A stretch of DNA of 64,000 bases from an uncultured bacterium (GTDB lineage: Bacteria; Chlamydiota; Chlamydiia; Chlamydiales; SM23-39). This document shows positions 1,715 through 56,039 of the stretch, piece by piece; within the stretch, counting starts at the first letter, position 1; each line of letters opens with the position of its first letter. The position numbers and the translations under genes are program-made. The notes beneath the pieces were generated by a model that worked only from the letters and a program-made list of their open reading frames with translations, ran no database searches and was not told where the DNA came from. The stretch is from the NCBI GenBank assembly GCA_964456885.1, contig CAYWDE010000001.1, positions 112-64,111 on the forward strand, in the 5' to 3' direction.

Positions 1715-1722
1715 GCATCTAC

Positions 1723-28045: not shown

Positions 28046-28081
28046 CTGAATAATGTGTCCAACGTTGGACACATTATTCAG
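28046..28081. repeat. P-box copy 5 (36-bp perfect palindrome CTGAATAATGTGTCCAACGTTGGACACATTATTCAG) overlapping the traD_F stop codon
   Basis: Read directly. A half site AACGTTGGA follows at 28092-28100. Confidence 0.95.
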
Positions 28082-39251: not shown

Positions 39252-39728
39252 TTATTTCGCTCCAAGGCTAGCCAGCCCTCCAATAATGAAGCCCAGAATA
39301 TGCACCAGGCAAAACCCTCCGAAAGCTCTAAGCGGATTAAAAAAGCTCATGACGAGAGGGATCGCAGGGCTTCTTTTTACTATTTTTGCAAATAGAGAAG
39401 CTCCTAGCCAATACAAATATTCAAGCACTACGACTATAAACATCATGCCATCAGCAAAAAAGTAGAAGCCATAACGAATTGATTGGCTTTTTTCTCCGAC
39501 AATAATATCTCTTATAAATGAAGCGAAGATTATGGCAATGAGCCCTAATGTGAGGTATGGAGCATACAAAGAAAATTTTCTGAGATTTTCCATCGTGAAG
39601 ATGTCAGGGGCTCCTTTTTCTTTTGGGAAAAAGTAATTGAATGTTTGAATCAGTTTCGGATAAGGGAAAATCTCGGAATAATGAGGAACTGTATTTTCAA
39701 TTTTTTTGGGTTGTTCATTCATTTTCAT
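39252..39728 (-). CDS. small polytopic inner-membrane protein directly after traG; positional analogue of the F TraS entry-exclusion protein
   Basis: Start ATGAAAATG overlaps the traG stop (track start 39797 lies inside traG). 3-4 TM segments. No sequence motif, so this is a positional inference only. Confidence 0.45.
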   Translation of the reverse strand: MKMNEQPKKIENTVPHYSEIFPYPKLIQTFNYFFPKEKGAPDIFTMENLRKFSLYAPYLTLGLIAIIFASFIRDIIVGEKSQSIRYGFYFFADGMMFIVVVLEYLYWLGASLFAKIVKRSPAIPLVMSFFNPLRAFGGFCLVHILGFIIGGLASLGAK

Positions 39729-42534: not shown

Positions 42535-43898
42535 CAGACGCCTCTTTCCTTTTCCCGGAGAGTCCTATCGATGTTAATCAGATAATCGATTGTTTGCTGT
42601 TCAGCTGAAATCTTTTGATAATTCTCCATATTGAGTGTCTGTAGATCCTTTAAAACATCGTGGACTTGCTTGATATACTCATTGAGTTCGTAGCCACTTA
42701 CTTGAGCCGCTCGAAGCGCTTCTGCTTTATTGAGGGTATCGCGCGCGACTTCTTCTGCGAATTTTAGTACCCTTTCAAAAGCGATCAGATCGCTATAGCG
42801 GTCGATCGAAATAATCGCCCCCTTCCCATTGTATTGAGTCATAAGAGACAAAAGACTTCCCATAGGGAAGTGGGTTGTACTGATCAGATTTCTTTCTTCA
42901 TCGGTTAGGACTTGGTTCCTCTCTTTATTTTCATTGAGGATCTTTTCCTGAATCTGGCGCAATAGCTTAAAAATCCGGGTTTTCCAAGCGCTTTCTACCG
43001 GAACATGGAGAGATTCTGATATTTTGACCTCTGCCCCATCCTTATCAATCTTGTAGGCTTTTGCCATACTCCCTCCAAAACGGAGTAATTCTATGGCTTT
43101 TTTGTACATGGGGGGATAGACCCGAACGCTTTTTTCAATCTGGCCATTCTGAGACATCTCCTTGACGACGATTGTCCCTGTGATATTCATAAACAGATTT
43201 TTGGTCTCTTCATCTAGGGACATTTGTGAGAGGGCTTTCCAAGCAACGTTATAGTCCCCGACCAGGATATTTTGATTGCCCCCTTTAACTTGCTCAAAAG
43301 TTGCATCCCGTTTTGTAGATTCTCGGCAACCATGCCGGGCTTCGATAAGATCTCGGAAGATAGGGGTTCCGCTCCCTGCGTGTTCGCAGATATAAGAAGA
43401 AGCTCTTTGGGTTTTGGGCCAAGCTCCCTGCACGAGGGATGTAGCGATCTCACAAGAATTGATATTGATTGCATTGAGTTGGTTCGCCCAAGTCTGAATC
43501 TGCTTCATTGTAGAAGAAACGACAGGAGAAACGGTCTCTACTCCTAAAAGAAAGGCATAAGCAATCCCATTGGTAGCGATGCTTTTAAGAGCTTTTTTCA
43601 TTTCCTCTTTGCTGGCAATATTGATCCCCCCTAAAGTGAAATCAATCCCCCCGCAGCCAGCTGTAAAATTAGGTAGCTGGACGTGTATGGGGTTTACATC
43701 ATAGACAGTTGTCCTCACTGCACCGCTGGTTCCCAGGAAATTGACTCCGAGGTTCGAATTCATGGACTCCGAAGAAGTGACATTGGATGCTACATTGAAA
43801 TTTTGGAAAAATTGGTCAATCTTCTTATTTAAGTTATTTTCCCCACATAGAATGGACATTTTTAACAAAATTAGGCCTGTCGTCAGGAATTTATTCAT
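42534..43898 (-). CDS. traH: F-type TraH
   Basis: 454 aa. Signal peptide, FTAGCGGIDFTLGG motif. 1-nt overlap with the traG start. Confidence 0.85.
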   Translation of the reverse strand: MNKFLTTGLILLKMSILCGENNLNKKIDQFFQNFNVASNVTSSESMNSNLGVNFLGTSGAVRTTVYDVNPIHVQLPNFTAGCGGIDFTLGGINIASKEEMKKALKSIATNGIAYAFLLGVETVSPVVSSTMKQIQTWANQLNAININSCEIATSLVQGAWPKTQRASSYICEHAGSGTPIFRDLIEARHGCRESTKRDATFEQVKGGNQNILVGDYNVAWKALSQMSLDEETKNLFMNITGTIVVKEMSQNGQIEKSVRVYPPMYKKAIELLRFGGSMAKAYKIDKDGAEVKISESLHVPVESAWKTRIFKLLRQIQEKILNENKERNQVLTDEERNLISTTHFPMGSLLSLMTQYNGKGAIISIDRYSDLIAFERVLKFAEEVARDTLNKAEALRAAQVSGYELNEYIKQVHDVLKDLQTLNMENYQKISAEQQTIDYLINIDRTLREKERGV

Positions 43899-44628
43899 GA
43901 TGGCCCTCTTCCTCTAGTTGCATTTCAATATTTCTTTCAAGATCGCTTACAGAGATAAGTCCAGCGCCTACTGGGAATGCCTTGTTTTCAAAGGGATTAA
44001 CGACAAAGAAAGAGGGGGTTGCTTCGACTCCTATATTCTGACTCATCCCCTTATCAATCTCGAAATCTTTGAGATTTTTCAATCCATACCCATCAAGAGA
44101 AATTGCCTTAACGGTCCAATTGTTTATCGAGGCAAAAAGATGGCCAATTTCAGCGGCTTTTTCAGAGAAGGGGTCCTTCCCTCGGAAGAAAAATAAAAGG
44201 AACCACGAATTTGATAAGTCTTGCAAGAGAGCTTTTCGTTGATTGAGATCAATATCCCGTTTTGCAAGAAGCCCGTAGCTAGTCGTTGGATTCAAAAGAA
44301 AATCTCCGAGAGCGGGTTTTTGCAAAAGGATCTTGCCCCATGCATCAGCGAATTGAGCGCTTTGATTGACCCATCTCCCCTGCTCGCGAAGGTAATTCTC
44401 CACATTCTCAGAGGTAGGGACCAGTAGTGCTAATGAAAGAAGCTTTTTAAGTTGCCTTTTTTCAAGCTCCAGAACTTCTTCAGCTTCATCAAGGGAAGGG
44501 GCTTTTCCTATGGCCTCCTCCATTTCCTGCTCCTGGAAGTAATACCAGCCTTCTAGCTTTTGCTCATACCAGGTGGCCGCTTGTAGGATCCCGATACAAA
44601 GAGTGGCGAAAATAAGTTTAAGAGCCAT
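43891..44628 (-). CDS. traF: F-type TraF (thioredoxin-fold pilus assembly protein without CxxC)
   Basis: EGWYYFQEQ. FLLFFFRGKDPFSEKAAEI. GVEATPSFFVVNP. Confidence 0.85.
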   Translation of the reverse strand: MALKLIFATLCIGILQAATWYEQKLEGWYYFQEQEMEEAIGKAPSLDEAEEVLELEKRQLKKLLSLALLVPTSENVENYLREQGRWVNQSAQFADAWGKILLQKPALGDFLLNPTTSYGLLAKRDIDLNQRKALLQDLSNSWFLLFFFRGKDPFSEKAAEIGHLFASINNWTVKAISLDGYGLKNLKDFEIDKGMSQNIGVEATPSFFVVNPFENKAFPVGAGLISVSDLERNIEMQLEEEGHHE

Positions 44629-46318
44629 TTTTGATCATCTCTTGTTGTTGGACAGCTTTATCGGTGTTTATTTTCCCTTCCGACTGTCCGGTTGATTGCA
44701 AATGATCTATAGTGGATCGAACCTTGTTCAAAAGTTCTTCTTTGTCGATTGTAAGATCTTCAATGACATCAGAAAGATCAATCTTGGTGAAATCGACTTG
44801 TTGCAGTTCAGACAAAGAGAATCCACGGCATTCAGGAGCCTCAGCTTTGCCCCATTTGATTCCTAGCTGCTCTCTCCCCTGTTCATGGAGGATTCGGGCC
44901 AATTTCGTCGGGAAACAACAAAAAATCTGAGCTGTTTGAGTATTTAAGTTCTCTTTTTGGCTTCCTACGTGATGGCACTGCCCTGCATGCCGTCGTTCAG
45001 CGAGGGATTGCTCTTCTGAAGTACAGCGGGCTAAATAGGTAGAGACAGCCAACCCATCCATTTTCTTACAGCAGTCATAAAGCGCTCCCTGGATAAAGCT
45101 GCATTGGCACTGCATTCTTTCTCCTCGAAAGATCTCCACATCCGCTCCAAACTCACGACCAGACTTTTCTAACTCGTTTTTGATATCAGAAAAAATAGAG
45201 AGGGTCGATACTGCTGTTCCGATTTCGTTGTTTTTCTCATAGGAAGAATCAAAGACCCCGCTCAATCCCCAGATCTTTTCTCCCTCGAAAATATGGGAGT
45301 CTTCGCGATGTGCTGCTTTCTTTGCCAGGTCATAGGTCTTTTCCCAAAGGTCGCATTCGCCAAAAAGGTTACTCTTCAGACACCGTTTTTTTGTAAGAAT
45401 GCCCCCTTGCGCCCGCAGTTTTGCACAGGGCGAGTCGGCATTTGGCTCGCAGGAAAAGAGTAATTGGCGGAACCAAGTATCCCGGAAGACCGCTTGCCCT
45501 TCGATCATTCGCACCCCGGGCCCTTCCACCACTTGCGAATAGAGAAGTTTGCAGCTGGGATTCCCCTCCACTACAGATAGGCTCTCAGGATAGTCTGTCT
45601 CCCAAAGATCTGTTTCGCTAGCAGATTGAATTAGATTCTCTTCTATAAGATAGCTCCGGCAATTGGTCGAATTGTCTTTATGCTTCCATTGGGAAACCAC
45701 AGCATATTTCTTGAATCCAACAACCTCTGAAATATTCGCATTGAAGGATTTTAAGGTGAGATCTTTAGAGAGTTCTTTTTTAATCCTCTTTAATTCGCCT
45801 TCAGCGCTGGATTCCCAAAAGAAATGTTCCGATAATTGAAAATGCCCTTTACAACTTTTGATCTGTTCCTTTACAGCAGGAAGTGCCTGTGCAATCCTCT
45901 TTTGCAGAAAAGTAATCTGATAGTTGCCCTCTTCCTGGCATACGCCTAATTTTTCCTCTTGGGGGATAGTTTGAGTCTGAGCGGATATCACTCCGATGTT
46001 TGCATTCGGATTGTCTAAAACAGCCTGGCTCAGCTGAAAGAGGGTTTCTGTCCCTTCAAACTGCTTTCTTTTAGCGGAGACAGCAGTAAATTGCTCGATC
46101 TCTTTGGATTTTATATTGCTAAGATCGAATTCTTTCCCCTTGTCTTTCTCTGGAAGCGCATCATCTTTTCCAAATTCCGAAGTCCAGCCGCCTTCAAGCC
46201 AATGCTTCACCTGCTCCTTTCCCCAAGCTTGATCCTCTTTAACTTGGCGCTTATCAGCGCTAATCAGGCTCATTGGGAAATAGATTAAAAGAGAGAATGC
46301 TAAAAACTTCTTCATCAT
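44618..46318 (-). CDS. traN: F-type TraN (Cys-rich outer-membrane mating-pair stabilisation protein)
   Basis: C-terminal GQCHHVGS...IFCCFPTKLARILHEQGREQLGIKWGKAEAPECRGFSLSELQQVDFTKIDLSD matches the conserved TraN tail. Confidence 0.9.
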   Translation of the reverse strand: MMKKFLAFSLLIYFPMSLISADKRQVKEDQAWGKEQVKHWLEGGWTSEFGKDDALPEKDKGKEFDLSNIKSKEIEQFTAVSAKRKQFEGTETLFQLSQAVLDNPNANIGVISAQTQTIPQEEKLGVCQEEGNYQITFLQKRIAQALPAVKEQIKSCKGHFQLSEHFFWESSAEGELKRIKKELSKDLTLKSFNANISEVVGFKKYAVVSQWKHKDNSTNCRSYLIEENLIQSASETDLWETDYPESLSVVEGNPSCKLLYSQVVEGPGVRMIEGQAVFRDTWFRQLLFSCEPNADSPCAKLRAQGGILTKKRCLKSNLFGECDLWEKTYDLAKKAAHREDSHIFEGEKIWGLSGVFDSSYEKNNEIGTAVSTLSIFSDIKNELEKSGREFGADVEIFRGERMQCQCSFIQGALYDCCKKMDGLAVSTYLARCTSEEQSLAERRHAGQCHHVGSQKENLNTQTAQIFCCFPTKLARILHEQGREQLGIKWGKAEAPECRGFSLSELQQVDFTKIDLSDVIEDLTIDKEELLNKVRSTIDHLQSTGQSEGKINTDKAVQQQEMIKNGS

Positions 46319-47208
46319 TAATATGCCGTTTGCCCATCAGGGACCGGAGTTAAAAAATACACCTCTTTTGCGAGTTGGGTTTCTGTAACTGTCGGGGAGT
46401 GGTTGATCGTAAAAATCACTAAAGGCGCAGGTAAATGGTCAGACTCCCTAATCCAGGGAAATTCAATCACTAACTTATCTTTCCCTCTGCGCACTTTATA
46501 AGATACGTTCCCGTTTGGAATTTCGGAATCTTTCCAAAGAACAAGAGAAGATACCTTCCCGGATTTCGAAGCAATAAATGTTCTGTTCATAGAACCCGGA
46601 TCTCCCTCACCTAATTCCCCCTTAGCTTTTACATAGATTTTTTCTCCGGGCATTAGATTTTCTATATCGAATAGATAACCTAGCGGATTCACATAATGCA
46701 TGGTGACTTTCATCTCATCCATAAACGCTGGCTCAACTGGGTAGGGAAGATAAAAAGCAGCATTGGTAGTCTCTTCCTTAAGATCTAGAAAAAGAAACTG
46801 GGAAGGCTCCCCCCTTTCAAAACCACCAATTATAAGAGGCTCGCAAGTCCCTATAGGGGCATCTCCCTTGCCGTTACGAAGGATTTTTCCGTCCCCTAGA
46901 TGTGCGCCTTCGAAAACGTCAATGGTCCTCCCTACCGCATTCCGGTGAGTAATTTTAAATTTTCTGCCATTTGGAATCCCATCAGCACGTAGGAAATATG
47001 TGGGAATCATCCCATTTTTGGAAGGGAGATCTACCCCTTTCGTAATCGTTAAAGAATACTTTTCTGAAGGTTTTTCATTTTCCCCATATAAAAGCTGAAG
47101 GAATTGAGCACAATTCTCAGGTGTAAGCATAGGACAGTTTGAAAGGTCGGCCGCGCAAGAGTAACTCGTAGAAGCTAATGTCATGATCAATATCGTAAAA
47201 AATCTCAT
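46318..47208 (-). CDS. exported protein of unknown function embedded in the tra operon
   Basis: Signal peptide MTLASTSYSCA. TAATG overlap with the traN start, and 8 bp after the traU stop. No motif recognised. Confidence 0.65.
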   Translation of the reverse strand: MRFFTILIMTLASTSYSCAADLSNCPMLTPENCAQFLQLLYGENEKPSEKYSLTITKGVDLPSKNGMIPTYFLRADGIPNGRKFKITHRNAVGRTIDVFEGAHLGDGKILRNGKGDAPIGTCEPLIIGGFERGEPSQFLFLDLKEETTNAAFYLPYPVEPAFMDEMKVTMHYVNPLGYLFDIENLMPGEKIYVKAKGELGEGDPGSMNRTFIASKSGKVSSLVLWKDSEIPNGNVSYKVRRGKDKLVIEFPWIRESDHLPAPLVIFTINHSPTVTETQLAKEVYFLTPVPDGQTAY

Positions 47209-47216
47209 AAATTCCT

Positions 47217-48281
47217 TTAGGGAAGGATCCCTTCTAAAGTTGTTGCTTTTACAGCTGGTTTAACCATATCCAGACAGCAGTGTTTCTTTGTCCAGATTAG
47301 ATAAACAAAATCCTCCCCGCCGTAGGGGAAGCTCTTTCCTGAGCCCCAAAACAGATCGCTTTTCCCAAGGGGTTGACAAGGGGCCTTTGTGTTAGCGATC
47401 GGCTGGACAAGTTGGGTTTTATAAATCGTTTTCTTGATTCTTGGCATGAGGGCCTTATCGCAGAAATTATCCTCAGCAAAGCCGAGAGCCATCCCCAATG
47501 AGTGAAGCTTGCCCAAAAGTCTATGAACTAGCAGATAGCTCGCTTGAACTGTCCCCAAATGGTGAGGAACATGGCCAACGAATGGATAAAGCGATCCCAT
47601 GCACCCAGCGCACCAGAATAGTTCGTCCATAGGAGCCCCAGCGGAAGAAGCCGCACAATCCGGAATACAAGCAACCTGGGCTAATGGATTCGAAAACAAG
47701 AAGATTTCAGGATTCAACACAGAAGCCCACTGATCGTCATCCCAAAATGGGTCAAATTCAGACAAATAGGAGACGGCCATTTCCGAGGACTCAAGACAAG
47801 AGAAGTCGGTCAGTATTCCTAGCCAGTGCAGAATAGGGAAATTGTAATAGTGGACATTATAAAAGCTAGACCTCCCAGAATCCCCTACATTTGCGATGGC
47901 TCCCCGTTTTTTAATGCCAGCTTTCGAAATTGTAGTTCCTCCCCAAGCAGTTAATTTATAGGGAGTCATCGTTACATCAATTAAAGCCGTTGGCTCCCAG
48001 AAAGCTAACGGGATCCCTAATTTCGGAGGAGTCCCTGCGCAGCTGCAAAAAGGGGTGAATTTATAATGCACAAGATCTTTATGCTCTGGAGTTACATTAG
48101 CTCCTGAGATATGAATCGGGAAAATACAGCCCCAACAGACATCCGTTATGGGGTTAACGAACTTTCCTTGTTCAGCAGAGCTAGAGGAATTCCAAAGAAG
48201 ACAACAGCCTAAAAACACATAGTGGATGGTCTTCGAATTTGTCCAACGTTGGACAAATTTCGTATACTCAATGGTCAACAT
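47217..48281 (-). CDS. traU: F-type TraU
   Basis: GKFVNPITDVCWGCIFPIHISG and FCSC motifs. ATG at 48281 (track start 48290 is GTG). Confidence 0.9.
   Translation of the reverse strand: MLTIEYTKFVQRWTNSKTIHYVFLGCCLLWNSSSSAEQGKFVNPITDVCWGCIFPIHISGANVTPEHKDLVHYKFTPFCSCAGTPPKLGIPLAFWEPTALIDVTMTPYKLTAWGGTTISKAGIKKRGAIANVGDSGRSSFYNVHYYNFPILHWLGILTDFSCLESSEMAVSYLSEFDPFWDDDQWASVLNPEIFLFSNPLAQVACIPDCAASSAGAPMDELFWCAGCMGSLYPFVGHVPHHLGTVQASYLLVHRLLGKLHSLGMALGFAEDNFCDKALMPRIKKTIYKTQLVQPIANTKAPCQPLGKSDLFWGSGKSFPYGGEDFVYLIWTKKHCCLDMVKPAVKATTLEGILP
48236..48259. repeat. P-box copy 6 (24-bp perfect palindrome AATTTGTCCAACGTTGGACAAATT) in the first codons or leader of traU
   Basis: Read directly. Translates as FVQRWTN. 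Confidence 0.95.
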
Positions 48282-48317
48282 CTTATGCACACGTGATGCT
48301 TATTTAATCTGATTAAT

Positions 48318-48346
48318 CTAATATGCTATTGATGTCTTTTTGTCAA
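48318..48346 (-). promoter_or_regulatory. sigma70-like promoter, copy B (TTGACA-17 nt-TATTAG on the minus strand) upstream of traU
   Basis: -35 at 48346-48341, -10 at 48323-48318. Part of a ~73-bp block (48287-48360) duplicated at 63229-63301. Confidence 0.6.
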
Positions 48347-48495
48347 ATCATCTATAAAGAGCCCGAGAATCTCTCTATTTTTAACCTAAATGGCATAAGC
48401 TTGTGTTTTTCTGGACAATAAAAGACTCTTTCTTTAGGGGTTAATTAAAAGCAAATTCTAGATTTCCTGTCCGCAGCTACGGAGAATGATTTTAA

Positions 48496-48702
48496 ATGAT
48501 GGAAATCAGGAGAAAAGAGGGTCTTGTGGCAAAGAAGGTTTTATCAGTTATTTTGATTATTGTAGGTCTGTTTTTTACGTTAATCCCCCATTCTGTGCAC
48601 CTTTTGTTCGGGCTGAATGTGCCACACATGTACCACGTTATTTTTGGATTGATTGCAGGTGGGATTGGCGCCTACCTTATGTTCGGTAAAAAGAGCAAAT
48701 GA
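48496..48702 (+). CDS. small 2-TM His-containing membrane protein, hypothetical
   Basis: 68 aa. HSVHLLFG and PHMYH. First gene of the metal island. Confidence 0.45.
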   Translation: MMEIRRKEGLVAKKVLSVILIIVGLFFTLIPHSVHLLFGLNVPHMYHVIFGLIAGGIGAYLMFGKKSK

Positions 48703-48737
48703 TCCATGCATTTAAAAAACAAGACAAGGAGCTTTAA

Positions 48738-49046
48738 ATGAATTCATACAAAATAATTATGAATATGGGAATATTCATATGTTTAACTTTTTTCCCATCT
48801 GTACATGCTATGGCGGGGACTCAACTAGCTCAAATGGACATGAAAGGAGTATGCGAGAATTTATCTCCAGAAATGCAACAATTTGCTAATAAATTAAATA
48901 TGAAGAACAAAATGCTGTTTTGTAGCGAATTTACTGATTCTCAAAGAACCCAAGCAATGCAAATGGCTGCTGGTACTGGTAGTTATAAAAACTCAAAAAT
49001 GTCACCTAATAAAAGTGTAGAAACAATTGCAGCTAAGATTAAATGA
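48738..49046 (+). CDS. small exported protein, paralog of 52741-53073
   Basis: Signal peptide FFPSVHA. MLFCSEFTDSQRTQAMQMA aligns with KIFCEDFNDAQRQQAMQIA. Confidence 0.6.
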   Translation: MNSYKIIMNMGIFICLTFFPSVHAMAGTQLAQMDMKGVCENLSPEMQQFANKLNMKNKMLFCSEFTDSQRTQAMQMAAGTGSYKNSKMSPNKSVETIAAKIK

Positions 49047-49106
49047 GATTTTTAAGGACTTTCATAATCAACAAACTTCCGCAGAGTAGAACTATCTGTA
49101 TTATAC

Positions 49107-49135
49107 CTCGGCCCTAAAAAGGCCGAGATTTTCTT
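49107..49135 (+). terminator. Rho-independent terminator (CTCGGCC-CTAAAAA-GGCCGAG followed by ATTTTCTT)
   Basis: 7-bp GC-rich stem plus a T-rich tail, between convergent genes. Confidence 0.65.
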
Positions 49136-49150
49136 CGCTAATCAGTAAAA

Positions 49151-49393
49151 TTAAGAAGTTTGACCACTACATTTACTTCCACAATAGCAGGTATCGCCAC
49201 ATTGGCAATTTTGTCCACACTGGCAAGTTTGAGAAGCACATTTGCGGCCTGTCTTAGAAAAGCATCCACAATTTTTTTCTTTTGTGCATGTACAGGATTG
49301 ACAAGGACAATTAGGTCTAGCTACCGCTGGTGCGGCTGAAAGCGAACTAATTACCATAAGAGAAGCACCTAAAAAGGTGACCAATGTTTTCAT
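49151..49393 (-). CDS. exported Cys-rich (metallothionein-like) small protein
   Basis: Signal peptide MVISSLSA-AP. The ~56-residue mature part has 14 Cys in CxC/CxxC arrays (CPCQSCTCT...CQCGQNCQCGDTCYCGSKC). Confidence 0.7.
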   Translation of the reverse strand: MKTLVTFLGASLMVISSLSAAPAVARPNCPCQSCTCTKEKNCGCFSKTGRKCASQTCQCGQNCQCGDTCYCGSKCSGQTS

Positions 49394-49497
49394 TTATATC
49401 CTCTTTTTTCTTTTTACTATACTCCTGTATGGTATATTTAAATAAAAATTATGTCAATTTCTGGGGAATTTATTTCGGAGTTAAACTAAGAGAACTC

Positions 49498-51243
49498 CTA
49501 TTGAGAGTGATGATCGCTTTTACTAGGCTCTTTACTCAAATATTGGATCCAAAGCCCCTTACCTCGAGTTACCAGCCCGCCGTATTCGGCTGTAACGCTG
49601 ATCAAAATTAAGTTGATCAAGCTGAGGGATACGAAAACATAGGCCGAAAATACCCTCCTCTTTCTGATCACATAGCCTCTAAAAAACGCATGCCCTAGGC
49701 TATAGGCCAATGTGCTAAGAGCCCAGTTCCTATGAAGGAGAATATAAGGGTTGTCGTGGTGACCTAGCTTCGATGCATATAAACCTGTAATCACAGTTAA
49801 GACAGATAAACCTGCAGCAATCACAACTACCCAATTAGAAAGGGCATAAAAAGGCTCTTTCCCTATACCTACTAAAAACAGAAAATCAAGAACAAAGGCT
49901 ACAAAAAAAAGAACAATAGGAAAATGGAGAAGAACAGGATGGAGATCTCCTATATTCAATCCTTTTGATTCATGTGTATGGCTTTTTTGTGTATTCTCTG
50001 GTTGCATCGTCTCTTTTTTCATATCCATTTGCTTTTGATCATGATGCATCATCCCAGAAGGAACTTCTGGTTTTATTGGAGCTGGAGACGCTTTATCTAG
50101 TTGGCCATACCAGCCTGGATCCAGATAATTAGTAATCCCTTCGCGCACCTTGACAACCGTAAACATTCCACTCATCTCAATCATTCCAAAGGGTCCAGGA
50201 GAGCCAAAAGGGAGAAAATTATTAGGTCTTTGCATATGATGACTCATCTCAAACATCTCCCCCATGCCATTCTCTCCCATTGGCATATAGTCAGGGAAAA
50301 TCGTTTGAATTTTTTCAGCCAATTCTCCTTGATCGACCCCGAGCATATTGGGAATATCATGTTCCATACCACTCATCATATGATGGGTTTTATGGCAATG
50401 AAGAGCCCAATCCCCAGGCTCATCAGCAATAAATTCAACATCATGAGTATTTCCTACGACGACATCGATGGTATTCCCAAAATATTGGGCACTCTTGGGA
50501 ATTCTTGAACCTCCAAACCCAGTGACAGTAAAAGTAAACCCATGCAAATGAATAGGATGATTATCCATACTCAAATTGGCAAATCGGAGGCGAACTCTCT
50601 CTCCTTTTTTTACTACTAATGGGTCAGATCCTGGATAAATCTTTCCATTGAAAGTAAAATAATTAAAGTCGAGCATAACCATAGGATCAGGGGTAGAAGC
50701 TCCAGGAGGAATAGCCCACTCATGGACAAAAATAGCAAAATCCCGATCGATAGAAGGCGACTCTGGTTTTTTAGGATGGATGATAAAAAAACCCATCATA
50801 CCCATTCCAATCTGCGTTATTTCATCAAAGTGTGGGTGGTACATGTAAGTACCATGCTGTTTTAAGGTGAATTCATAGGTGAATGTCTTTCCTGGAGGAA
50901 TAGGAGCCTGGTTAAGCCCTGTCACCCCATCCATTGCATTGGGAAGAAGAATCCCATGCCAGTGAACGGTTGTCGGTTCTGAAAGATTATTGGTCACTAA
51001 AATCCTGACCCTCTCTCCTTCTACCGCCTCAATCGTTGGACCTGGAGCACTCCCATTATAACCCCAACAATTGATTACCAGTCCAGGAGCAAATTCTTGC
51101 TGTACTTCCTCTGCTACAAGGTGAAAGACTTTGACCCCGTCTTCCATAATCCAGGGAAGCTTGGCAACATTAGGAGTAATAACGGAATGACTCTCTTGCT
51201 TACTGCAACCGAAAAGTACCAAAAGGAGAAATAACCATCTCAT
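49498..51243 (-). CDS. multicopper oxidase (CopA/CueO-type) lipoprotein fused to a C-terminal DUF2231-like membrane domain
   Basis: Lipobox LFGC. Copper sites HWHGI, HPHFD, HLHG, HCHKTHHMMSGM. Met/His-rich linker. C-terminal HPVLLHFPIVLFF plus 4 TM. Confidence 0.88.
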   Translation of the reverse strand: MRWLFLLLVLFGCSKQESHSVITPNVAKLPWIMEDGVKVFHLVAEEVQQEFAPGLVINCWGYNGSAPGPTIEAVEGERVRILVTNNLSEPTTVHWHGILLPNAMDGVTGLNQAPIPPGKTFTYEFTLKQHGTYMYHPHFDEITQIGMGMMGFFIIHPKKPESPSIDRDFAIFVHEWAIPPGASTPDPMVMLDFNYFTFNGKIYPGSDPLVVKKGERVRLRFANLSMDNHPIHLHGFTFTVTGFGGSRIPKSAQYFGNTIDVVVGNTHDVEFIADEPGDWALHCHKTHHMMSGMEHDIPNMLGVDQGELAEKIQTIFPDYMPMGENGMGEMFEMSHHMQRPNNFLPFGSPGPFGMIEMSGMFTVVKVREGITNYLDPGWYGQLDKASPAPIKPEVPSGMMHHDQKQMDMKKETMQPENTQKSHTHESKGLNIGDLHPVLLHFPIVLFFVAFVLDFLFLVGIGKEPFYALSNWVVVIAAGLSVLTVITGLYASKLGHHDNPYILLHRNWALSTLAYSLGHAFFRGYVIRKRRVFSAYVFVSLSLINLILISVTAEYGGLVTRGKGLWIQYLSKEPSKSDHHSQ

Positions 51244-52592
51244 TCTTGCTTCCTTAAAAGATCAACAGATCCTCCGACGGCATAGAGCAGGTCAATTCTT
51301 GCTTTTTTGTACAGTTGTAACGCATGAATATGCTCAATTGTAGCTCGGACTTCGTTGGCTTTCAGTTCTAAAAGATCATAGATTCCAAGAGTCATTACAT
51401 TGTAATGGAGTTGTCCTAAGATCAGCTGTTCCTGAAGATTAGGGAAAATGGTCCCTTCAAAATCTTTAAGCTGAGACTGATATTTACTGGCTGTTTTGAA
51501 AAACTCTCTCACTTCTGAGCAGGCATGAACCGCTTTAGAGAGAAGTTTTTTTTGATTTTGCTCCAGTTCAGCATGATACCTCTTCTTTGCGCCTTGGCCG
51601 TGGTTGAAAATAGGCACTTCCAAGGAAATAGAAGGCCCTATTGTTGTGAACCCTTCTGGCTGTTTTTCTGAGGAGACGCCAAGTAGTAGATTGGAATAAG
51701 TCCACCATTCTTTTAATTTGGCTTTCTGGGCAATGGCATCTGTTTCTCGACGAATGGTTTCGATGTCCAGTCGGTTTTCTATAGCTGCTTTCTCCAGTGT
51801 GTTTAAATCAGGCAAATCAATATCATTTTTCCAATCAATTTCTCCGGCAATCTTCCAATGAGCTTCGTTACCAAAGACGCCTAAGAGGCGGTTCATTTTT
51901 TCTCTGGCCATTTCTAACTCGGCTTCAAACCCCTTGAATTTTTCTACGGCCTCCTCATGTTGGATTTCGTGGCCTTTTGCCTGCAATGCACTAATATTTC
52001 CCGCTTGATTTTGAAGCTTGGCTAAACTTGCAGCCAAATGGCTTAACTCTACGAGTTTTTTTTCTTCTGCTAGCTGCAGGTCTAAAGATTTAACTTCCAA
52101 CCAATTGACTTGCACTTCTTGGACTAAATCAAGGACCTTTTGTCCAATTTGAGATTCAATCACTTTGATTGCAGCTTCGGCCGCTTTTTTGCGAAAGGGG
52201 ATCAGAAAAAGGTCTAAAAAACTAATGGCTGCATCAAAAACATTACTCAAAACATATCCAGACTTATTGGGAAAGCCAACGCTAGCACTGAAAAATGGGT
52301 TCTGCATCAGCCCTGCTTCAAGCAAATCTGCATAGCCAATCTCCAGATCTTCGTAGTAAGCAAATAGTTCAGGGTTATTAACGAGGGCTAACTGCACTCC
52401 ATTTTCTTGTGTAAGGCCCTTTTTCTCAATTTCCTGCAGAAACTGTTGTTTGATTTCTTCAACCCCTTCACGCCAAACCATTTGTTTAGAAATGCGCTCT
52501 TCAATGACCTGTCTAACTGACTCAAAAGAAGTATCGCTAGATCGAGTTGAACAACTCGCGAGGAAAAGAGAACATAGAATCCATTTCTTCAT
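51240..52592 (-). CDS. outer-membrane efflux factor (TolC/NodT family) lipoprotein
   Basis: Lipobox FLASC. Two long coiled repeats typical of the OEP family. ATGA overlap with the oxidase gene. Confidence 0.7.
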   Translation of the reverse strand: MKKWILCSLFLASCSTRSSDTSFESVRQVIEERISKQMVWREGVEEIKQQFLQEIEKKGLTQENGVQLALVNNPELFAYYEDLEIGYADLLEAGLMQNPFFSASVGFPNKSGYVLSNVFDAAISFLDLFLIPFRKKAAEAAIKVIESQIGQKVLDLVQEVQVNWLEVKSLDLQLAEEKKLVELSHLAASLAKLQNQAGNISALQAKGHEIQHEEAVEKFKGFEAELEMAREKMNRLLGVFGNEAHWKIAGEIDWKNDIDLPDLNTLEKAAIENRLDIETIRRETDAIAQKAKLKEWWTYSNLLLGVSSEKQPEGFTTIGPSISLEVPIFNHGQGAKKRYHAELEQNQKKLLSKAVHACSEVREFFKTASKYQSQLKDFEGTIFPNLQEQLILGQLHYNVMTLGIYDLLELKANEVRATIEHIHALQLYKKARIDLLYAVGGSVDLLRKQE

Positions 52593-52740
52593 ACTTTTTC
52601 TGAATAAAGAAAATAAGACAAGAAAAGCAAGTGAATTTATTAGGATATTTGATTTTGGCAGTCCTTAACTTGTATAAAAAGTAAAAAGCTCCTATGTTGA
52701 AGAAAAACTTTCCTTCATAACCAAATTAAGGGAGTGTCAT

Positions 52741-53073
52741 ATGAAAGTACAAAAACTCATGAGTTCTTTTGTCCTCGTCGCTTTTATAAGTTGTTTTGGC
52801 ACTATGCATGCTGAACAATCTCAAAATTTAGAAGGAATGGTTGCAGCGGGTAAAGATCCTCCTTACGAAAGACATCACTATAAGAGAGAGTGTAGGAATT
52901 TTTCAGAAGAGACAAAAAGATTTTCCGACAAGTTGAATGATTCAAACTTAAAGATATTTTGTGAAGACTTTAATGATGCGCAGCGACAGCAAGCGATGCA
53001 AATAGCAAGTCAAAAGGGTATGAATATGACTCCTGATCAAGCTGTTGAAATGGTCACAGCAAAAAAGAAATAA
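52741..53073 (+). CDS. small exported protein, paralog of 48738-49046
   Basis: Signal peptide ISCFGTMHA, with a shared FC-E-F-D-QR-QAMQ-A block. Confidence 0.6.
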   Translation: MKVQKLMSSFVLVAFISCFGTMHAEQSQNLEGMVAAGKDPPYERHHYKRECRNFSEETKRFSDKLNDSNLKIFCEDFNDAQRQQAMQIASQKGMNMTPDQAVEMVTAKKK

Positions 53074-53115
53074 GCCATCTTGAGATGAAAAGATGATTTT
53101 AATTAGGGCCAAAAC

Positions 53116-55296
53116 ATGAAACATGAATCGGATTGTTGCTCCTCCTCTCATCTCTCTAAAAAAACGAATAACCCTCTCTCTCCCCATTCTCCTGTCGAAT
53201 ATACATGCCCCATGCATCCTCAAATTGTACAACCTAAACCAGGAAGCTGCCCTATTTGTGGAATGGCTTTAGAGTCCAAGGTTTTTACAGCTGAAAAAGA
53301 GGAAAACGTCGAGTTGAAAGAAATGACTCTGCGTTTTTGGGTTGGATTTGTCTTAACGCTACCCATCTTATGGCTGACTATGATAGGACCTCTCTTTTCA
53401 TTCAGCCCATCTCCTCAAGTCAGCTCATGGATTCAAGCAATTCTTGCCACACCGATAGTTCTATGGGGCGGATGGCCTTTTTTTACGCGTGGTTGGAGTT
53501 CTATTATTCATCGCAATTTAAACATGTTTACTTTGATCAGTATTGGCGTAGGGGCTGCTTATTTCTATAGCATGGTTGCTACACTCTGGCCTTCGATCTT
53601 TCCTCCCTCCTTTCAAAGTAAAAATCATGAAATCCCTGTTTACTTTGAAGCGGCTAGCGTGATTACTGTCTTGGTACTTCTAGGACAGGTCTTAGAGCTG
53701 CGAGCGAGAGATAGAACGGGCAATGCAATTCGAACCCTCCTCAACTTAGCTCCCAAGACAGCTCGTGTCCTTTTAGAAGACAAAAGCGAAAAAGATATCC
53801 CGCTTGAGGAAGTTAAAAAGGGAGATATCCTACGTGTAAGACCAGGGGAGAAAGCTCCCACGGATGGAATTATCCTTGAAGGAAGTAGCTCCATCGACGA
53901 ATCGATGATTACGGGAGAACCTTTTCCCGTTACTAAGAGTCCTGGAGACAAAGTGACAGGAGCCACTTTGAATGGGAGTGGTAGTTTTATCATGCGAGTT
54001 GAAAAAGTGGGCAGTGAAACACTGCTTGCCCGGATTGTCCAAATGGTCAGCGAAGCACAGCGTAGTCATGCTCCCATTCAAAAGCTTGCCGATCTTGTCT
54101 CTTCTTATTTTGTTCCTATTGTTGTGATGATCGCTGTGATTACGTTTATCGTTTGGAGTCTCATTGGTCCTTCTCCTGCTTTTGCTCATGCCCTCATCAA
54201 CGCTGTGGCTGTTCTCATCATAGCTTGCCCCTGTGCTTTAGGCTTGGCAACCCCAATGTCCATCATGGTCGGTGTCGGCCATGGTGCGATGGCTGGCATC
54301 TTAATCAAAAATGCAGAAGCTCTTGAGACGATGTCTAAAGTCGATACAGTGGTTGTCGATAAAACGGGAACCTTGACAGAAGGGAAGCCTAAGCTGACAG
54401 CGATTTTAAGCTTGGGAGAAAATAATGAGAATGAGCTCCTCCAATGGGCTGCAAGCTTGGAGATTGCCAGTGAACATCCCTTAGGAGCGCCCATTGTATC
54501 GAGGGGAAAAGAGAAGGGACTACCACTACTGCCTATAGAAGATTTTCAGAGCATCGCAGGGAAGGGGGTTATTGGGAAGATCGCAGGAAAAACAGTCTCA
54601 ATTGGGAATCAAAAACTTCTCTCCGATTTACATGTTGATCTAATGATCGCCTTAGAAAAGGCTGAATCTCTACGTCAGCAAGGACAAACGGTCTTATACC
54701 TGGCAATCGATGGAAAAATAGCAGGGATTTTTGCCGTTTCCGATGTCATCAAAATCTCTACAAAGGAAGCGATTGACCTGTTGCATAAAGATGGCATTCG
54801 GATTGTCATGTTAACAGGAGACAATCAAACAACGGCGAGGGCTGTTGGCAAAGCGCTCCGTATTGACGAGATTGAAGCCGAAGTATTACCCGAGGATAAG
54901 AACAAAATTATCAAGCGTTTTCAAACAGAGGGGAGAATTGTCGCTATGGCGGGCGATGGAATTAATGATGCTCCAGCACTTGCTCAGGCGAATGTGGGCA
55001 TCGCCATGGGCACGGGTACAGACATTGCCATCGAAAGCGCAGGAATTACTCTTGTTAAGGGAGATCTGAGAGGGATTGCAAGAGCAAGAAAATTAAGTTT
55101 GGCTACAATGCGCAATATTAGACAAAACCTGTGGTTTGCTTTTATTTACAACGCTCTAGGAGTTCCTATTGCTGCTGGTGTACTTTATCCGGTATTTGGG
55201 CTTTTACTCAGCCCCATTATTGCAAGTGCAGCAATGACTCTCAGCTCTGTGTCTGTCATTATGAATTCACTGAGATTAAATAGACAAAAATTATGA
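53116..55296 (+). CDS. copA: copper-translocating P1B-type ATPase
   Basis: N-terminal [24 protein letters not shown] metal-binding domain. TGEP, CPC ([12 protein letters not shown]), [15 protein letters not shown]. Confidence 0.93.
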
Positions 55297-55341
55297 GAGT
55301 CGGCACCGATAGAATTAATGGCACTCTAAAATAAGGGCATG

Positions 55342-55479
55342 ATGGATTGGACAGTTATTGTTGTGGTTTTTGTTTTAACACTTTGCATGGTTGGATGTTG
55401 TGGTGGCTCATTGATGAAAGGCTTACGCAGAAATAAAGGCAATGGGAAGGACAACGATAAACATACAGGTTGCCATTAG
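55342..55479 (+). CDS. 45-aa single-TM peptide downstream of copA (not in the ORF track)
   Basis: MDWTVIVVVFVLTLCMVGCCGGSLMKGLRRNKGNGKDNDKHTGCH. Cys/His-containing. Weak call. Confidence 0.3.
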   Translation: MDWTVIVVVFVLTLCMVGCCGGSLMKGLRRNKGNGKDNDKHTGCH

Positions 55480-55502
55480 AAATAGTAGGTTCCTCGTAAG
55501 AA

Positions 55503-56039
55503 TCATTCGGTTTCAGTGGGTCCTTTTTCCTTGAATATTTTTAACACCGTTTCTAAGTAAATGTTTCCCGCTATTTTATTGTATTTCTCCCCATTCAAAA
55601 GTACTGTAGTTGGGACTTCTTGGACCCCATATCTCCCATAGGCTTCGGGATCAATACAAATAGGCGCGGTTACTCCAGCATCTCTAAGTTCTTTGATCTT
55701 TTGGGAAAATGCTAGAAACGAATTCCCAGGAAGTCCTCGCAGCACTAATATTCCTCCTGCTTTCTCCAATGATTGAGACCATTCCTTCCAACTTTCTAAT
55801 GGGACCGAAAAAGACATAAATACCAAAAGATTATACCTCGATGGTTGAAAATTTTCGGACACGGATGGACAATTTTTACATTTGGGGGAGTTCTTTGCGG
55901 GCTCCTGCTCATACAAACTCTTAAGAAACAGAAAAGCCTCTTCGTCTGCCTGCTTCCCCGCCTGTTCAGCAAATTGCTTTGCCTCCTCAGAAATAGAGAG
56001 AGTCAAAATCAATAAAAGAGACGGGACGAGCCAACTCAT
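55503..56039 (-). CDS. trbC: F-type TrbC (pilin assembly)
   Basis: LLVFMSFSVPLESWKEWSQSLEKAGGILVLRGLPGNSF and ICIDPEAYGRYGVQEVPTTVL match the TrbC pattern. Confidence 0.85.
   Translation of the reverse strand: MSWLVPSLLLILTLSISEEAKQFAEQAGKQADEEAFLFLKSLYEQEPAKNSPKCKNCPSVSENFQPSRYNLLVFMSFSVPLESWKEWSQSLEKAGGILVLRGLPGNSFLAFSQKIKELRDAGVTAPICIDPEAYGRYGVQEVPTTVLLNGEKYNKIAGNIYLETVLKIFKEKGPTETE

What the first reader, a model, noticed from the sequence alone, without database searches (positions are those of the whole stretch)
48236..48360. The tra promoter is duplicated: the same ~73-bp block with TTGACA-17-TATTAG plus a downstream P-box precedes both traA and traU
48287-48360 and 63229-63301 align over about 73 bp with roughly nine mismatches by hand count. 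The shared sequence is GCACAC..GATGCTT.TTTAAT...ATTAATCTAATATGCT.TTGATGT.TTTTTGTCAAATC.TCTATAA.A.

On the minus strand each block supplies a consensus -35 (TTGACA), a 17-nt spacer and TATTAG. Each is followed by a P-box in the early transcribed region, at 48236-48259 and 63154-63169. The traA copy has a further P-box upstream (63314-63329).

The metal island separates trbC from traU. The second copy looks like a repair that restores regulated transcription of the distal half of the operon (traU-N-F-H-G). It also explains why the ORF track gives homologous GTG starts for both genes.
Basis: partly seen in the sequence, partly recalled or inferred. Interest (0 to 1): 0.65.

Follow-up and report, generated by a model that had tools for sequence, protein, structure and literature searches.

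The report
Duplicated tra promoter flanking a cargo slot
An environmental chlamydial conjugative plasmid carries a second copy of its pilus-operon promoter and operator in front of traU, so the distal transfer genes probably keep regulated expression although cargo DNA (here a copper-resistance island) splits the operon; the copy is older than this island and serves a slot that holds different cargo in related plasmids.

Summary
Positions 48280-48357 and 63222-63299 are direct repeats of 78 nt, 68/78 identical. On the minus strand each has TTGACA-17 nt-TATTAG, followed by the palindrome TGTCCAACGTTGGACA (the P-box).

The window is an F-type tra region of an environmental chlamydial plasmid. 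A copper island (48.36-55.50 kb) separates trbC from traU.

The "repair after the metal island" reading is only partly right.
- The internal promoter copy, joined to traU in the same way, is also present in relatives that hold other cargo in the same slot: L091 (a possible OTU-family gene), L172 (a Fic gene) and L178 (an FKBP gene). L001 also has the copy, but its contig is cut 430 nt upstream of traU.
- The copy is absent from about 30 relatives in which trbC and traU are contiguous. One of these, L177, nests inside the cargo-bearing clade.
- A palindrome at the trbC/traU junction exists even in contiguous operons (L005, L010, L011, L177), so it predates the split.

P-boxes fit a 26-bp consensus with an invariant 16-bp core (19 distinct sites in 4 elements). 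They also lie upstream of parA and of a dnaB operon, inside traI and at the 3' end of traD. That pattern suggests a plasmid-wide operator whose binding protein is unknown.

No transcription data exist, and the -10 hexamer lacks the canonical final T. I rate this a new variant of a known kind, of moderate interest.

The parts
63314..63329 (.). Upstream P-box of PtraA. Its centre is about -69 from the inferred start site, in the divergent region between a P-type ATPase gene (starts at 63562, + strand) and traA.
   Evidence: The same position is kept in L171 PtraA and in the internal copy of L091.
63222..63299 (-). PtraA block. -35 TTGACA at 63288->63283, 17-nt spacer, TATTAG at 63265->63260, then the leader running to the traA Shine-Dalgarno sequence.
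63154..63169 (.). Downstream P-box inside the traA leader-peptide codons (CPTLDK). Its centre is about +92.
   Evidence: The PTL[D/E] codons CCAACGTTGGA are kept in many TraA relatives.
62870..63205 (-). traA (propilin-like, 111 aa), first gene of the proximal operon traA-L-E-K-B-dsbC-V-C-W-trbC.
   Evidence: P0121; gene order in relatives. There is no Pfam hit, so the name rests on position and on the homologues.
55503..56039 (-). trbC, last gene of the proximal half of the operon.
   Evidence: Pfam PF09673.
48358..55502 (.). Cargo in the trbC|traU slot: a copper island. Contents: CopA-type P1B ATPase 53116-55296 (+); OEP/TolC-like 51240-52592 (-); multicopper oxidase 49498-51243 (-); Cys-rich 80-aa protein 49151-49393 (-); two paralogous small secreted proteins 48738-49046 and 52741-53073 (+); a 68-aa membrane protein 48496-48702 (+).
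   Evidence: The identical island is present in L176 and L008.
48280..48357 (-). Internal PtraU block. -35 TTGACA at 48346->48341, 17-nt spacer, TATTAG at 48323->48318. The traU ATG (48281) lies at the 3' edge of the block.
48236..48259 (.). P-box (24-nt perfect palindrome) in codons 8-15 of TraU. Its centre is about +64.
   Evidence: It is orthologous to the junction palindromes of contiguous relatives.
47217..48281 (-). traU, with an N-terminal extension that contains the P-box. It is the first gene of the distal operon.
   Evidence: Pfam PF06834, E 4e-99; P0001; N-termini compared.
39715..47208 (-). Rest of the distal operon: a clade-specific 296-aa gene (46318-47208), traN, traF, traH and traG.
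28046..28081 (.). P-box (36-nt perfect palindrome) that overlaps the traD stop codon. A second, imperfect site lies at 27941-27958, between convergent genes.
24849..24878 (.). P-box (30-nt palindrome) upstream of the 111-aa zinc-ribbon gene (24421-24756, -).
19738..19769 (.). P-box (32-nt palindrome) between the divergent genes 18849-19649 (-) and 19843-20334 (+).
7689..7714 (.). P-box (26-nt palindrome) in frame inside the relaxase gene traI (5035-9603).

Best explanation
**What the block is.** The 78-nt block is the sigma-66/sigma-70-type promoter and leader of the pilus operon (PtraA). In an ancestor of this plasmid clade a copy of the module was placed in front of traU, immediately upstream of a palindromic operator that already sat at the trbC/traU junction. 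The copied unit was upstream P-box, -35/-10 and leader. This step is inferred.

**What the copy does.** It turned one F-type tra operon into two co-regulated transcription units, traA...trbC and traU...traG. It also opened an intergenic slot where cargo can sit without polar effects on the distal mating-pair genes. In this window the slot holds a 7.1-kb copper island. In sister plasmids it holds unrelated genes.

**How regulation is shared (inferred).** Both promoters are flanked by, or followed by, the same 26-bp palindrome RAATKTGTCCAACGTTGGACAMATTY. The palindrome also occurs upstream of the parA/pgp6-like operon and a dnaB operon, and at other backbone sites. The most likely mechanism is that one plasmid-encoded dimeric DNA-binding protein, not yet identified, binds these sites and sets transfer, partition and replication expression together. 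At the two tra promoters a bound site at about +64 or +92 would act as a roadblock or a nucleation point.

**Shown versus inferred.**
- Shown: the sequence homology, the motif conservation, the association with the cargo slot, and the phylogenetic distribution.
- Inferred: promoter activity, protein binding, and the direction of the duplication.
For: 1. **The repeat is real.** 78 nt, 87% identical, E about 3e-21.
2. **The motif behaves like a promoter.** Ten block copies from six elements keep TTGACA, exactly 17 nt, then TAT[T/C/G]AG. The spacer sequence varies and its length does not. Across all loci with TraU at least 50% identical, the pattern TTGACA-N17-TATNAG hits only the traA- and traU-proximal positions.
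3. **The copy tracks the cargo slot.**
   - The internal copy is present wherever cargo separates trbC and traU in the close clade: window/L176/L008 (metal island), L091/L171 (four genes, one with a faint OTU hit), L178 (FKBP gene), L172/L173 (Fic gene) and L001 (cut contig).
   - It is absent from about 30 contiguous relatives, including L177.
4. **All traU copies share one join.** The traU copies that extend past the block (window, L001, L091) show the same join: block, ATG, about 25 nt, P-box. That indicates a single origin. The L091 copy also keeps the upstream P-box at the same distance as in PtraA.
5. **The junction palindrome is older than the copy.** It is present in contiguous operons with lineage-specific sequence. 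All sites within one element share that element's variant:
   - L005: TTCCAACGTTGGAA, 3 sites
   - L177: GGTGTAACGGTTACACC, 2 sites
   - L010: GTGTGCAACNGTTGCACAC, 2 sites
   - L011: TGCAACGTTGCA, 3 sites
. This is the pattern expected when sites co-evolve with a trans-acting protein.
6. **P-boxes form a consistent set.** 19 distinct sites share an invariant 16-bp core and a palindromic flank consensus. Sites lie just upstream of parA in L089, L171, L172 and L005, and upstream of an HTH_17-dnaB operon in L172.
7. **Read-through is unlikely.** The cargo layout argues against transcription from PtraA reaching traU.
Against: - There is no transcript or start-site evidence of any kind. The organism is known only from metagenomes.
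- The -10 hexamer ends in G in every copy, so it lacks the highly conserved final T. The consensus scanner rejects both sites.
- traU has no recognisable Shine-Dalgarno sequence before ATG 48281.
- The P-box binding protein is unidentified. P-boxes also lie in places that make little sense for a simple repressor (inside traI, and between convergent 3' ends), and they can form stable hairpins.
- L177 nests inside the cargo-bearing clade in NJ trees without support values. Either it lost cargo and promoter, or recombination is frequent, or the copy arose more than once.
Confidence: 0.62

Rival explanations
1. The internal copy arose as a repair when this metal island was inserted between trbC and traU, and it is specific to that event.
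For: - The block is found only where cargo interrupts trbC-traU.
- In the window lineage the two copies are unusually alike: 85-87% identical, against 65% in L171/L091 and about 56% in L172.
Against: - The same join to traU is present in L001, L091 and L178. Cargo that lacks the metal genes fills the slot in L091, L178 and L172.
- The sister contig L176/L180 has the same island. Its A and U copies were already 82% identical to each other, and the orthologous copies are 94-95% identical. The A-U similarity therefore predates the split of the window and L176, and the copies are not a fresh duplication.
Confidence: 0.07
2. The P-box works as an RNA or DNA hairpin (attenuator, terminator, processing or stabilising element, or cruciform), not as a protein operator. 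The duplicated block is then mainly a shared leader.
For: - The palindromes fold into very stable hairpins, down to -33 kcal/mol at the 3' end of traD, with z-scores of -4 to -9.5.
- Several sites lie in transcribed regions or between convergent genes.
- The scanner flags the two traA-proximal P-boxes as terminator-like, each followed by a T-rich tail.
Against: - The 16-bp core is invariant in 19 sites, with no compensatory pair changes, and the flanks follow a sequence consensus.
- Some sites lie upstream of promoters (63314-63329, and upstream of parA).
- Each relative uses one variant at all of its sites, which fits a trans-acting specificity determinant.
- Within the leaders the predicted folds are not significantly more stable than shuffled sequence (z -1.5 and -1.7).
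Confidence: 0.15
3. The block is a recombination scar or the end of a mobile element, not a promoter. Homologous or site-specific recombination at P-boxes or blocks would be what moves cargo in and out.
For: - Cargo sits immediately upstream of both copies. Upstream of PtraA this is a P-type ATPase in the window, a racemase and an SSF transporter in L171, and nothing in L172.
- In L091 the cargo is bracketed by P-boxes at 7196 and 9896.
- The plasmid encodes a serine resolvase, and the 26-bp palindromic site length recalls invertase sites (my own knowledge).
- Logan contigs break at the block (L173).
Against: - The block always has one orientation, facing a tra gene, and is never found at the other cargo boundary.
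- Its conservation pattern is that of two hexamers at fixed spacing.
- The P-box centre CG is symmetric, so it would give no directionality. Eight such recombination sites in 64 kb would destabilise the plasmid.
Confidence: 0.1
4. The two copies look alike only because of recent gene conversion between unrelated regulatory regions, or the internal copy is a decaying, non-functional duplicate.
For: - The window's PtraA leader (CATCTTGTGTGC) resembles the U-type leaders of other elements more than it resembles the PtraA of L171 or L172. That suggests some conversion.
- The upstream P-box has decayed in the window and L001 internal copies.
Against: - The -35, the spacer length and the -10 are retained in every internal copy, across lineages whose TraU proteins are about 83% identical.
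- The sequence just upstream of the block is not alignable between lineages.
Confidence: 0.06

Closest known systems
SXT/R391 ICEs and IncA/C plasmids (MPF-F type). Their transfer genes are split into several operons, each with its own SetCD/AcaCD-dependent promoter, and variable DNA sits in intergenic hotspots. This is from my own knowledge of the literature and was not checked here.
   Same: - The gene set is F-type (traLEKBV, dsbC, traC, traW, traU, traN, traF, traH, traG).
- A repeated promoter/regulator-site module stands in front of the sub-operons.
- Strain-specific cargo sits in the gap between them without disrupting the transfer genes.
   Different: - Only one extra split is seen here (trbC|traU).
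- The repeated element is a whole duplicated promoter plus a palindrome, not an activator box.
- No SetCD/AcaCD homologue or box was seen.
- The regulator is unknown and more likely a repressor.
- The host is a chlamydial plasmid.
IncP-1 (RK2/RP4) global regulation by KorB and its palindromic OB operators (my own knowledge).
   Same: - One palindrome is repeated many times on the plasmid.
- It lies next to replication, partition and transfer promoters, at variable distances upstream or downstream, and some copies are far from any promoter or inside genes.
- The par operon lies next to a site.
   Different: - The site is 16-26 bp, not 13 bp.
- The partner of ParA here is a UPF0137/Pgp6-like protein with no ParB domain found.
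- Binding has not been tested.
The F plasmid tra operon: one long PY-driven operon with minor internal promoters, and TraY, an RHH regulator (my own knowledge).
   Same: - Gene order and content match.
- Most chlamydial relatives have the contiguous F-like layout.
- A small protein that looks RHH-like by eye (no Pfam or NCBIfam hit) is encoded next to traA in several relatives.
   Different: - Here the second promoter is a homologous copy of the first.
- It is tied to a cargo slot.
- No FinOP, TraJ or TraM equivalents were identified.
Promoter reuse, or 'putative mobile promoters': homologous promoter regions found upstream of unrelated genes within one genome (my own knowledge).
   Same: A promoter-sized segment of about 80-110 nt is duplicated in front of a non-homologous gene.
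   Different: - Here the copy includes operator sites.
- It stays within one operon.
- It is conserved over several plasmid lineages.
Chlamydial plasmid maintenance genes Pgp5 (ParA) and Pgp6 (UPF0137). Pgp6 is 'expected to act as ParB' (PMC11895440), and both belong to the ancestral chlamydial plasmid core (PMC7846284).
   Same: A parA gene followed by a UPF0137 gene lies divergent from traA in this plasmid lineage (L089, L171, L172, L180). A P-box lies just upstream of parA in L089, L171 and L172; L180 was not scanned for it.
   Different: No P-box-like site has been described for Chlamydia Pgp6 in the papers read. The link between Pgp6 and the P-box is my inference.

Membership tests
sigma-70/sigma-66-type promoter | -35 hexamer close to TTGACA | tested here: met
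   TTGACA is exact in all 10 copies.
sigma-70/sigma-66-type promoter | Spacer of 16-18 nt, fixed in length while its sequence drifts | tested here: met
   The spacer is 17 nt in all copies and its sequence varies.
sigma-70/sigma-66-type promoter | -10 hexamer TATAAT with A at position 2 and T at position 6 | tested here: not met
   The hexamer is TATTAG, TATCAG or TATGAG. A2 is present but position 6 is always G, and the scanner rejects the sites.
sigma-70/sigma-66-type promoter | A mapped transcription start, or promoter activity | not testable with these tools
   No transcript data are available for these metagenomic contigs.
Protein-bound palindromic operator / plasmid-wide regulon (KorB-OB-like) | The same palindrome is repeated far above chance on one replicon | tested here: met
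   8 sites in the window against 0.1 expected; 19 distinct sites in 4 elements with an invariant 16-bp core.
Protein-bound palindromic operator / plasmid-wide regulon (KorB-OB-like) | Sites lie next to promoters of several backbone functions | tested here: met
   Sites lie upstream and downstream of PtraA and PtraU, upstream of parA, and upstream of an HTH_17-dnaB operon. The promoters themselves are inferred.
Protein-bound palindromic operator / plasmid-wide regulon (KorB-OB-like) | A cognate ParB/KorB-family protein is encoded on the plasmid | tested here: not met
   The gene after parA is UPF0137 (PF03677). It has no ParB domain and no relative in the PDB. Only part of the plasmid was available.
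Protein-bound palindromic operator / plasmid-wide regulon (KorB-OB-like) | Binding and repression have been demonstrated | not testable with these tools
   This needs EMSA, DAP-seq or reporter assays.
F-type (MPF-F) conjugative transfer operon | Signature genes traL, E, K, B, V, C, W, U, trbC, N, F, H and G, in F-like order | tested here: met
   Window proteins hit Pfam TraU, TraN and TrbC. TraW hits TIGR02743 with E 1.5e-49, just below the curated cut-off. TraL, E, K, B, C, F, H and G are named from the Pfam tables of homologous loci with the same gene order. traV is assigned by position only.
F-type (MPF-F) conjugative transfer operon | A single uninterrupted operon from the pilin gene to traG | tested here: not met
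   7.1 kb of cargo and a second promoter copy lie between trbC and traU. The operon is contiguous in about 30 relatives.
SXT/R391-IncA/C style modular tra regions with cargo hotspots | Variable, strain-specific DNA lies in a fixed intergenic position between tra sub-operons | tested here: met
   Four unrelated cargo sets occupy trbC|traU. A second slot lies upstream of PtraA.
SXT/R391-IncA/C style modular tra regions with cargo hotspots | A SetCD/AcaCD activator and its box at each promoter | not tested
   No such genes appeared in the Pfam scans that were run. No dedicated search was made.
Intrinsic terminator | A G+C-rich stem-loop followed by a U tract | tested here: inconclusive
   Two of the eight P-boxes are flagged, each with a 6-bp stem and a T-rich tail. 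The others lack a T tract, and the core is conserved as sequence rather than as pairing.

The most novel reading that the evidence does not exclude
The AAC-GTT-centred palindromes may be the long-sought DNA target of the chlamydial plasmid protein Pgp6/UPF0137. That protein is essential and unexplained in Chlamydia plasmids, and it is encoded here directly after parA, with a P-box in front of the operon. On this reading Pgp6 is a centromere-binding protein that also acts as a plasmid-wide regulator. It would couple partition, replication and conjugative transfer, with specificity variants that define incompatible plasmid lineages. The duplicated promoter-operator modules would mark exchangeable cargo slots in chlamydial megaplasmids.
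Probability: 0.2. Interest if true: 0.65.

Novelty: new variant of a known kind. Interest (0 to 1): 0.4.

Why it matters
**Operon evolution.** It shows how a long F-type transfer operon can tolerate cargo in its middle. A copy of the operon's own promoter and operator is placed after the gap, so the distal genes should stay under the same control. The slot created this way turns over cargo between related plasmids: a copper island, a possible OTU-family gene, a Fic gene and an FKBP gene.

**Chlamydial biology.** It gives the first concrete candidate cis-regulatory elements for conjugative plasmids of environmental chlamydiae. These are a promoter motif and a 26-bp operator family whose specificity varies by lineage.

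**A testable lead.** It offers a lead on which plasmid protein controls transfer, with the Pgp6-like protein as one candidate. None of this changes general principles already known from IncP, F and SXT/IncC systems.

Tried and rejected
**Searches that found little or nothing.**
- A plasmid database search (PLSDB, distant mode) with 46000-50000 gave only a 247-bp, 69% match to a Criblamydia plasmid, so no annotated close relative exists there.
- An exact-pattern scan of metagenome contigs with the block consensus found nothing. That collection does not even hold the L001 contig.
- Rfam found no family anywhere in the window, so the block is not a known leader or sRNA.
- The consensus promoter scan does not call either block, because of the G at -10 position 6. 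Alternative -10 registers were considered and rejected:
  - CATATT with a 15-nt spacer has a sixth base that varies between copies.
  - TAGATT with a 20-nt spacer is too long.

- UPF0137 has no informative match in the PDB sequences or in NCBIfam. Structure prediction was not possible because the protein is encoded outside the window.

**Ideas tested and set aside.**
- I first read the extended palindromy of the P-box flanks as covariation, which would favour a hairpin. Pooling 19 sites showed that the flanks follow a sequence consensus, RAAT[K]...[M]ATTY.
- Folding of the two leaders gave no significant structure beyond the P-box hairpin.
- I considered that the P-box is constrained at the protein level (PTLD in the TraA leader). 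This is unlikely, because the same DNA is read in three different frames in TraA, TraU and TraI/TrbC.
- I could not tell which copy, traA or traU, is the original. PtraA in L005 is not alignable to the block.
Full report
**1. What the window is**

The window has about 40% G+C. On the minus strand it carries an F-type transfer region. The gene order is:
- traA (62870-63205), traL, traE, traK and traB
- a thioredoxin/DsbC-like gene, traV and traC (56674-59292)
- traW (56036-56665; TIGR02743, E 1.5e-49) and trbC (55503-56039)
- then, after a gap, traU (47217-48281), a clade-specific 296-aa gene, traN, traF, traH and traG (39715-42534)

These assignments rest and on the Pfam tables of homologous loci. 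The closest database relatives are uncultured Chlamydiae, Parachlamydiales and Simkaniaceae.

The window also holds a MobA/MobL-type relaxase (5035-9603), a coupling protein (28074-29837), a serine resolvase and two AbiEi/AbiEii pairs. Contigs that extend beyond the window end show a P-type ATPase gene, parA, a UPF0137/Pgp6-like gene and dnaB, all divergent from traA. This is the backbone of a chlamydial plasmid (PMC7846284; PMC11895440).

**2.

- The repeat finder reports 48280-48357 and 63222-63299 as a 78-nt direct repeat, 87% identical (alignment). blastn gives E about 3e-21.
- On the minus strand each copy reads TTGACA, 17 nt, TATTAG.
- The palindrome TGTCCAACGTTGGACA follows each copy, at 48236-48259 and 63154-63169. 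A third copy lies upstream of the traA block, at 63314-63329. The window has eight such sites against 0.1 expected.
- Pfam confirms the island between trbC and traU: a CopA-type ATPase with a heavy-metal-binding domain, an outer-membrane efflux protein and a multicopper oxidase.

Two corrections are needed.
- The -10 hexamer is not consensus. It lacks the final T, and the scanner therefore does not call either site.
- The 'homologous GTG starts' are just the shared GTGTGC of the block. The likely starts are ATG 63205, which has GGAGAG 8 nt upstream, and ATG 48281. These are the starts of the database proteins P0121 and P0001.

Both downstream P-boxes therefore lie in N-terminal codons, and they are read in different frames.

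**3. Relatives**

*Contiguous relatives.* In about 30 loci with TraU 50-87% identical, traW, trbC and traU are contiguous or overlapping.

*Cargo-bearing relatives.* In the closest clade the junction is open, and each lineage holds different cargo.

| Lineage | Cargo between trbC and traU |
|---|---|
| window, L008, L176 | the copper island |
| L091/L171 (one JGI contig; TraU 83%) | a 210-aa secreted protein, a 340-aa protein with a faint OTU hit, and two further genes |
| L178 (NCBI GCA_975195835.1) | a 202-aa gene, small ORFs and a 616-aa FKBP-domain gene |
| L172/L173 | a Fic-domain gene and a 303-aa gene |
| L001 (TraU 84%) | unknown: the contig is cut 430 nt upstream of traU, and that stretch is unrelated to the window's |

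*The internal block is present in all of these.*
- Every one has TTGACA-17-TAT[T/C]AG. Where the sequence continues past the block (window, L001, L091), the traU ATG lies at its 3' edge and a P-box about 25 nt further on.
- The L091 copy also keeps the upstream P-box, at the same distance as in PtraA. The duplicated unit was therefore originally at least 110 nt: P-box, promoter and leader.
- The pattern TTGACA-N17-TATNAG occurs nowhere else in these loci.

*L177 is the exception.* Its TraU is 87% and its TraC 91% identical to the window's. It is contiguous and has one block only, in front of traA. In NJ trees without support values it nests inside the cargo-bearing clade.

**4. Age of the parts**

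*The junction palindrome is older than the block.*
- L005 is contiguous and has TraU 68% identical by tblastn and 73% by BLASTP for P0012. It carries GAGTTTTTCCAACGTTGGAAAAACTC in the 3' end of trbC, ending 26 nt before the traU ATG. The frame relation to TraU is the same as in the window.
- L005 has the same variant in the traA leader and upstream of parA.
- L011 has three tandem TGCAACGTTGCA just upstream of traU.
- L010 has AAAGTGTGCAACNGTTGCACACTTT on both sides of trbC.
- L177 has AAAGGTGTAACGGTTACACCTTT at the junction and about 75 nt upstream of its PtraA.
- The traU 5' end is therefore a regulatory node even in uninterrupted operons. Each plasmid uses a single variant at all of its sites.

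*The block copy is younger than the palindrome but older than the metal island.*
- The traU copies are orthologous, because they share the same join.
- The sister contig L176/L180 carries the same island, and its orthologous copies are 94-95% identical to the window's. Its A and U copies are 82% identical to each other.

*The two copies are unusually alike in this lineage.*
- The A and U copies are 85-87% identical in the window lineage, against 65% in L171/L091 and about 56% in L172.
- The window's PtraA leader looks U-type.
- I read this as some gene conversion between the copies before the window and L176 split. The inference is weak.

**5. What the P-box is**

Pooling 19 distinct sites from four elements gives the consensus RAATKTGTCCAACGTTGGACAMATTY, with an invariant 16-bp core.

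Site positions:
- about -69 and +92 at PtraA, and +64 at PtraU
- directly upstream of parA in L089, L171, L172 and L005
- upstream of an HTH_17-dnaB operon in L172
- between divergent genes (19738-19769)
- inside traI (7689-7714)
- across the traD stop codon (28046-28081)

The distance between the two PtraA-type sites varies from 134 to 242 bp, which argues against a phased loop.

Three features fit a double-stranded DNA site for a dimeric plasmid protein better than a hairpin:
- the core is conserved as sequence, not as pairing
- some sites lie upstream of promoters
- specificity switches for a whole element at once

The palindromes do fold stably, and two of them look terminator-like, so the hairpin reading stays a live rival.

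Candidate binding proteins, none tested:
- The UPF0137/Pgp6-like protein encoded after parA. Pgp6 is 'expected to act as ParB' (PMC11895440).
- The 86-aa protein at 3598-3858, which looks RHH-like by eye. It has no Pfam or NCBIfam hit. Its homologues sit next to traA in L005, L009, L010, L011 and L093.

**6. Mechanism proposed**

PtraA and its copy PtraU drive two units under one operator system. The copy makes the trbC|traU junction a safe harbour for cargo.

The layout of the copper island supports the need for a second promoter:
- copA is convergent with trbC
- two genes oppose traU
- a G+C-rich hairpin at 49107-49127 lies after the oxidase cluster

A second slot lies upstream of PtraA. It holds an ATPase gene in the window, a racemase and a transporter in L171, and nothing in L172. 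L097, a distant relative with TraU 55% identical, has independent cargo at the same junction and no such block.

**7. Comparison with known systems, and verdict**

- Functionally this resembles the modular, hotspot-bearing tra regions of SXT/R391 and IncA/C elements, and the KorB/OB regulon of IncP plasmids.
- It differs from F, which has a single PY-driven operon.
- It is not a member of those regulatory families. No ParB/KorB domain was found, no SetCD/AcaCD box was seen, and the -10 element is atypical.
- I rate it a new variant of a known kind, of moderate interest. The value lies mainly in the operator family and its possible link to Pgp6.

Noticed in passing
window 31688-31724, 33677-33713, 36332-36368, 37138-37174: There is a second, unrelated palindrome family, AATTGTTCCACAGCTGTGGAACAATT, in four copies (family D6). 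Two copies lie just upstream of the two AbiEi antitoxin genes (32962-33567, minus strand; 37346-37945, plus strand; Pfam). They are probably AbiEi autoregulatory operators.
   Followed up: partly
window 63562-64000 (+) and L089:1631-3493: A second heavy-metal-type P-type ATPase (620 aa, 38% identical to the CopA in the island) lies between parA and PtraA. The window lineage therefore has metal cargo immediately upstream of both promoter copies. L171 has a racemase and an SSF transporter there, and L172 has nothing.
   Followed up: partly
window 36366-36932 vs 28074-29837: This is a truncated second copy of the coupling-protein gene. Its 188-aa ORF hits TrwB_AAD_bind, and repeats D4, D10 and D11 match traD at 89-91% identity. 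It is probably a pseudogene left by a duplication.
   Followed up: partly
window 1718-2035: Three tandem copies of a 106-nt unit (100%, 87% and 64% identical to the reference copy) lie just after the 570-aa HTH-containing ORF at the window start (family D1). They could be iterons or an origin region.
   Followed up: no
window 9677-9828 vs 11052-11203, and 9854-9884 vs 11230-11260: A 152-nt direct repeat (92% identical) and an adjacent 31-nt repeat lie 1375 nt apart, downstream of traI (families D3 and D15).
   Followed up: no
window 48738-49046 and 52741-53073: Two paralogous small secreted proteins lie inside the copper island. They are 45% identical over 67 aa and share the motif FC.(E/D)F.D.QR.QAMQ.A. 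Neither has a Pfam hit.
   Followed up: partly
L011:9911-9962: Three tandem TGCAACGTTGCA palindromes, spaced 20 nt apart, lie immediately upstream of traU in a relative with a contiguous operon.
   Followed up: partly
L097:1390-7044: A distant chlamydial relative (TraU 55% identical) has an independent 5.6-kb cargo insertion at the same trbC|traU junction. It includes an AAA ATPase gene and repeat-rich proteins, and it has no TTGACA-17-TATNAG block.
   Followed up: partly
L089:4650-5045 and L180:6801-7196 vs window 62010-62573: In some sample variants of the same plasmid, traE is called as 131 aa instead of 187 aa, with a gap after traL. This is either a frameshift or start-site variant, or an assembly error.
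   Followed up: no
window 3598-3858 (+): This 86-aa ORF looks like a ribbon-helix-helix protein by eye (no Pfam or NCBIfam hit) and lies next to a TraD(Ti)-like gene and the relaxase gene. In L005 the homologue is a tandem two-repeat protein of 141 aa. In L005, L009, L010, L011 and L093 the homologue lies just upstream of traA, which recalls TraY of the F plasmid.
   Followed up: partly
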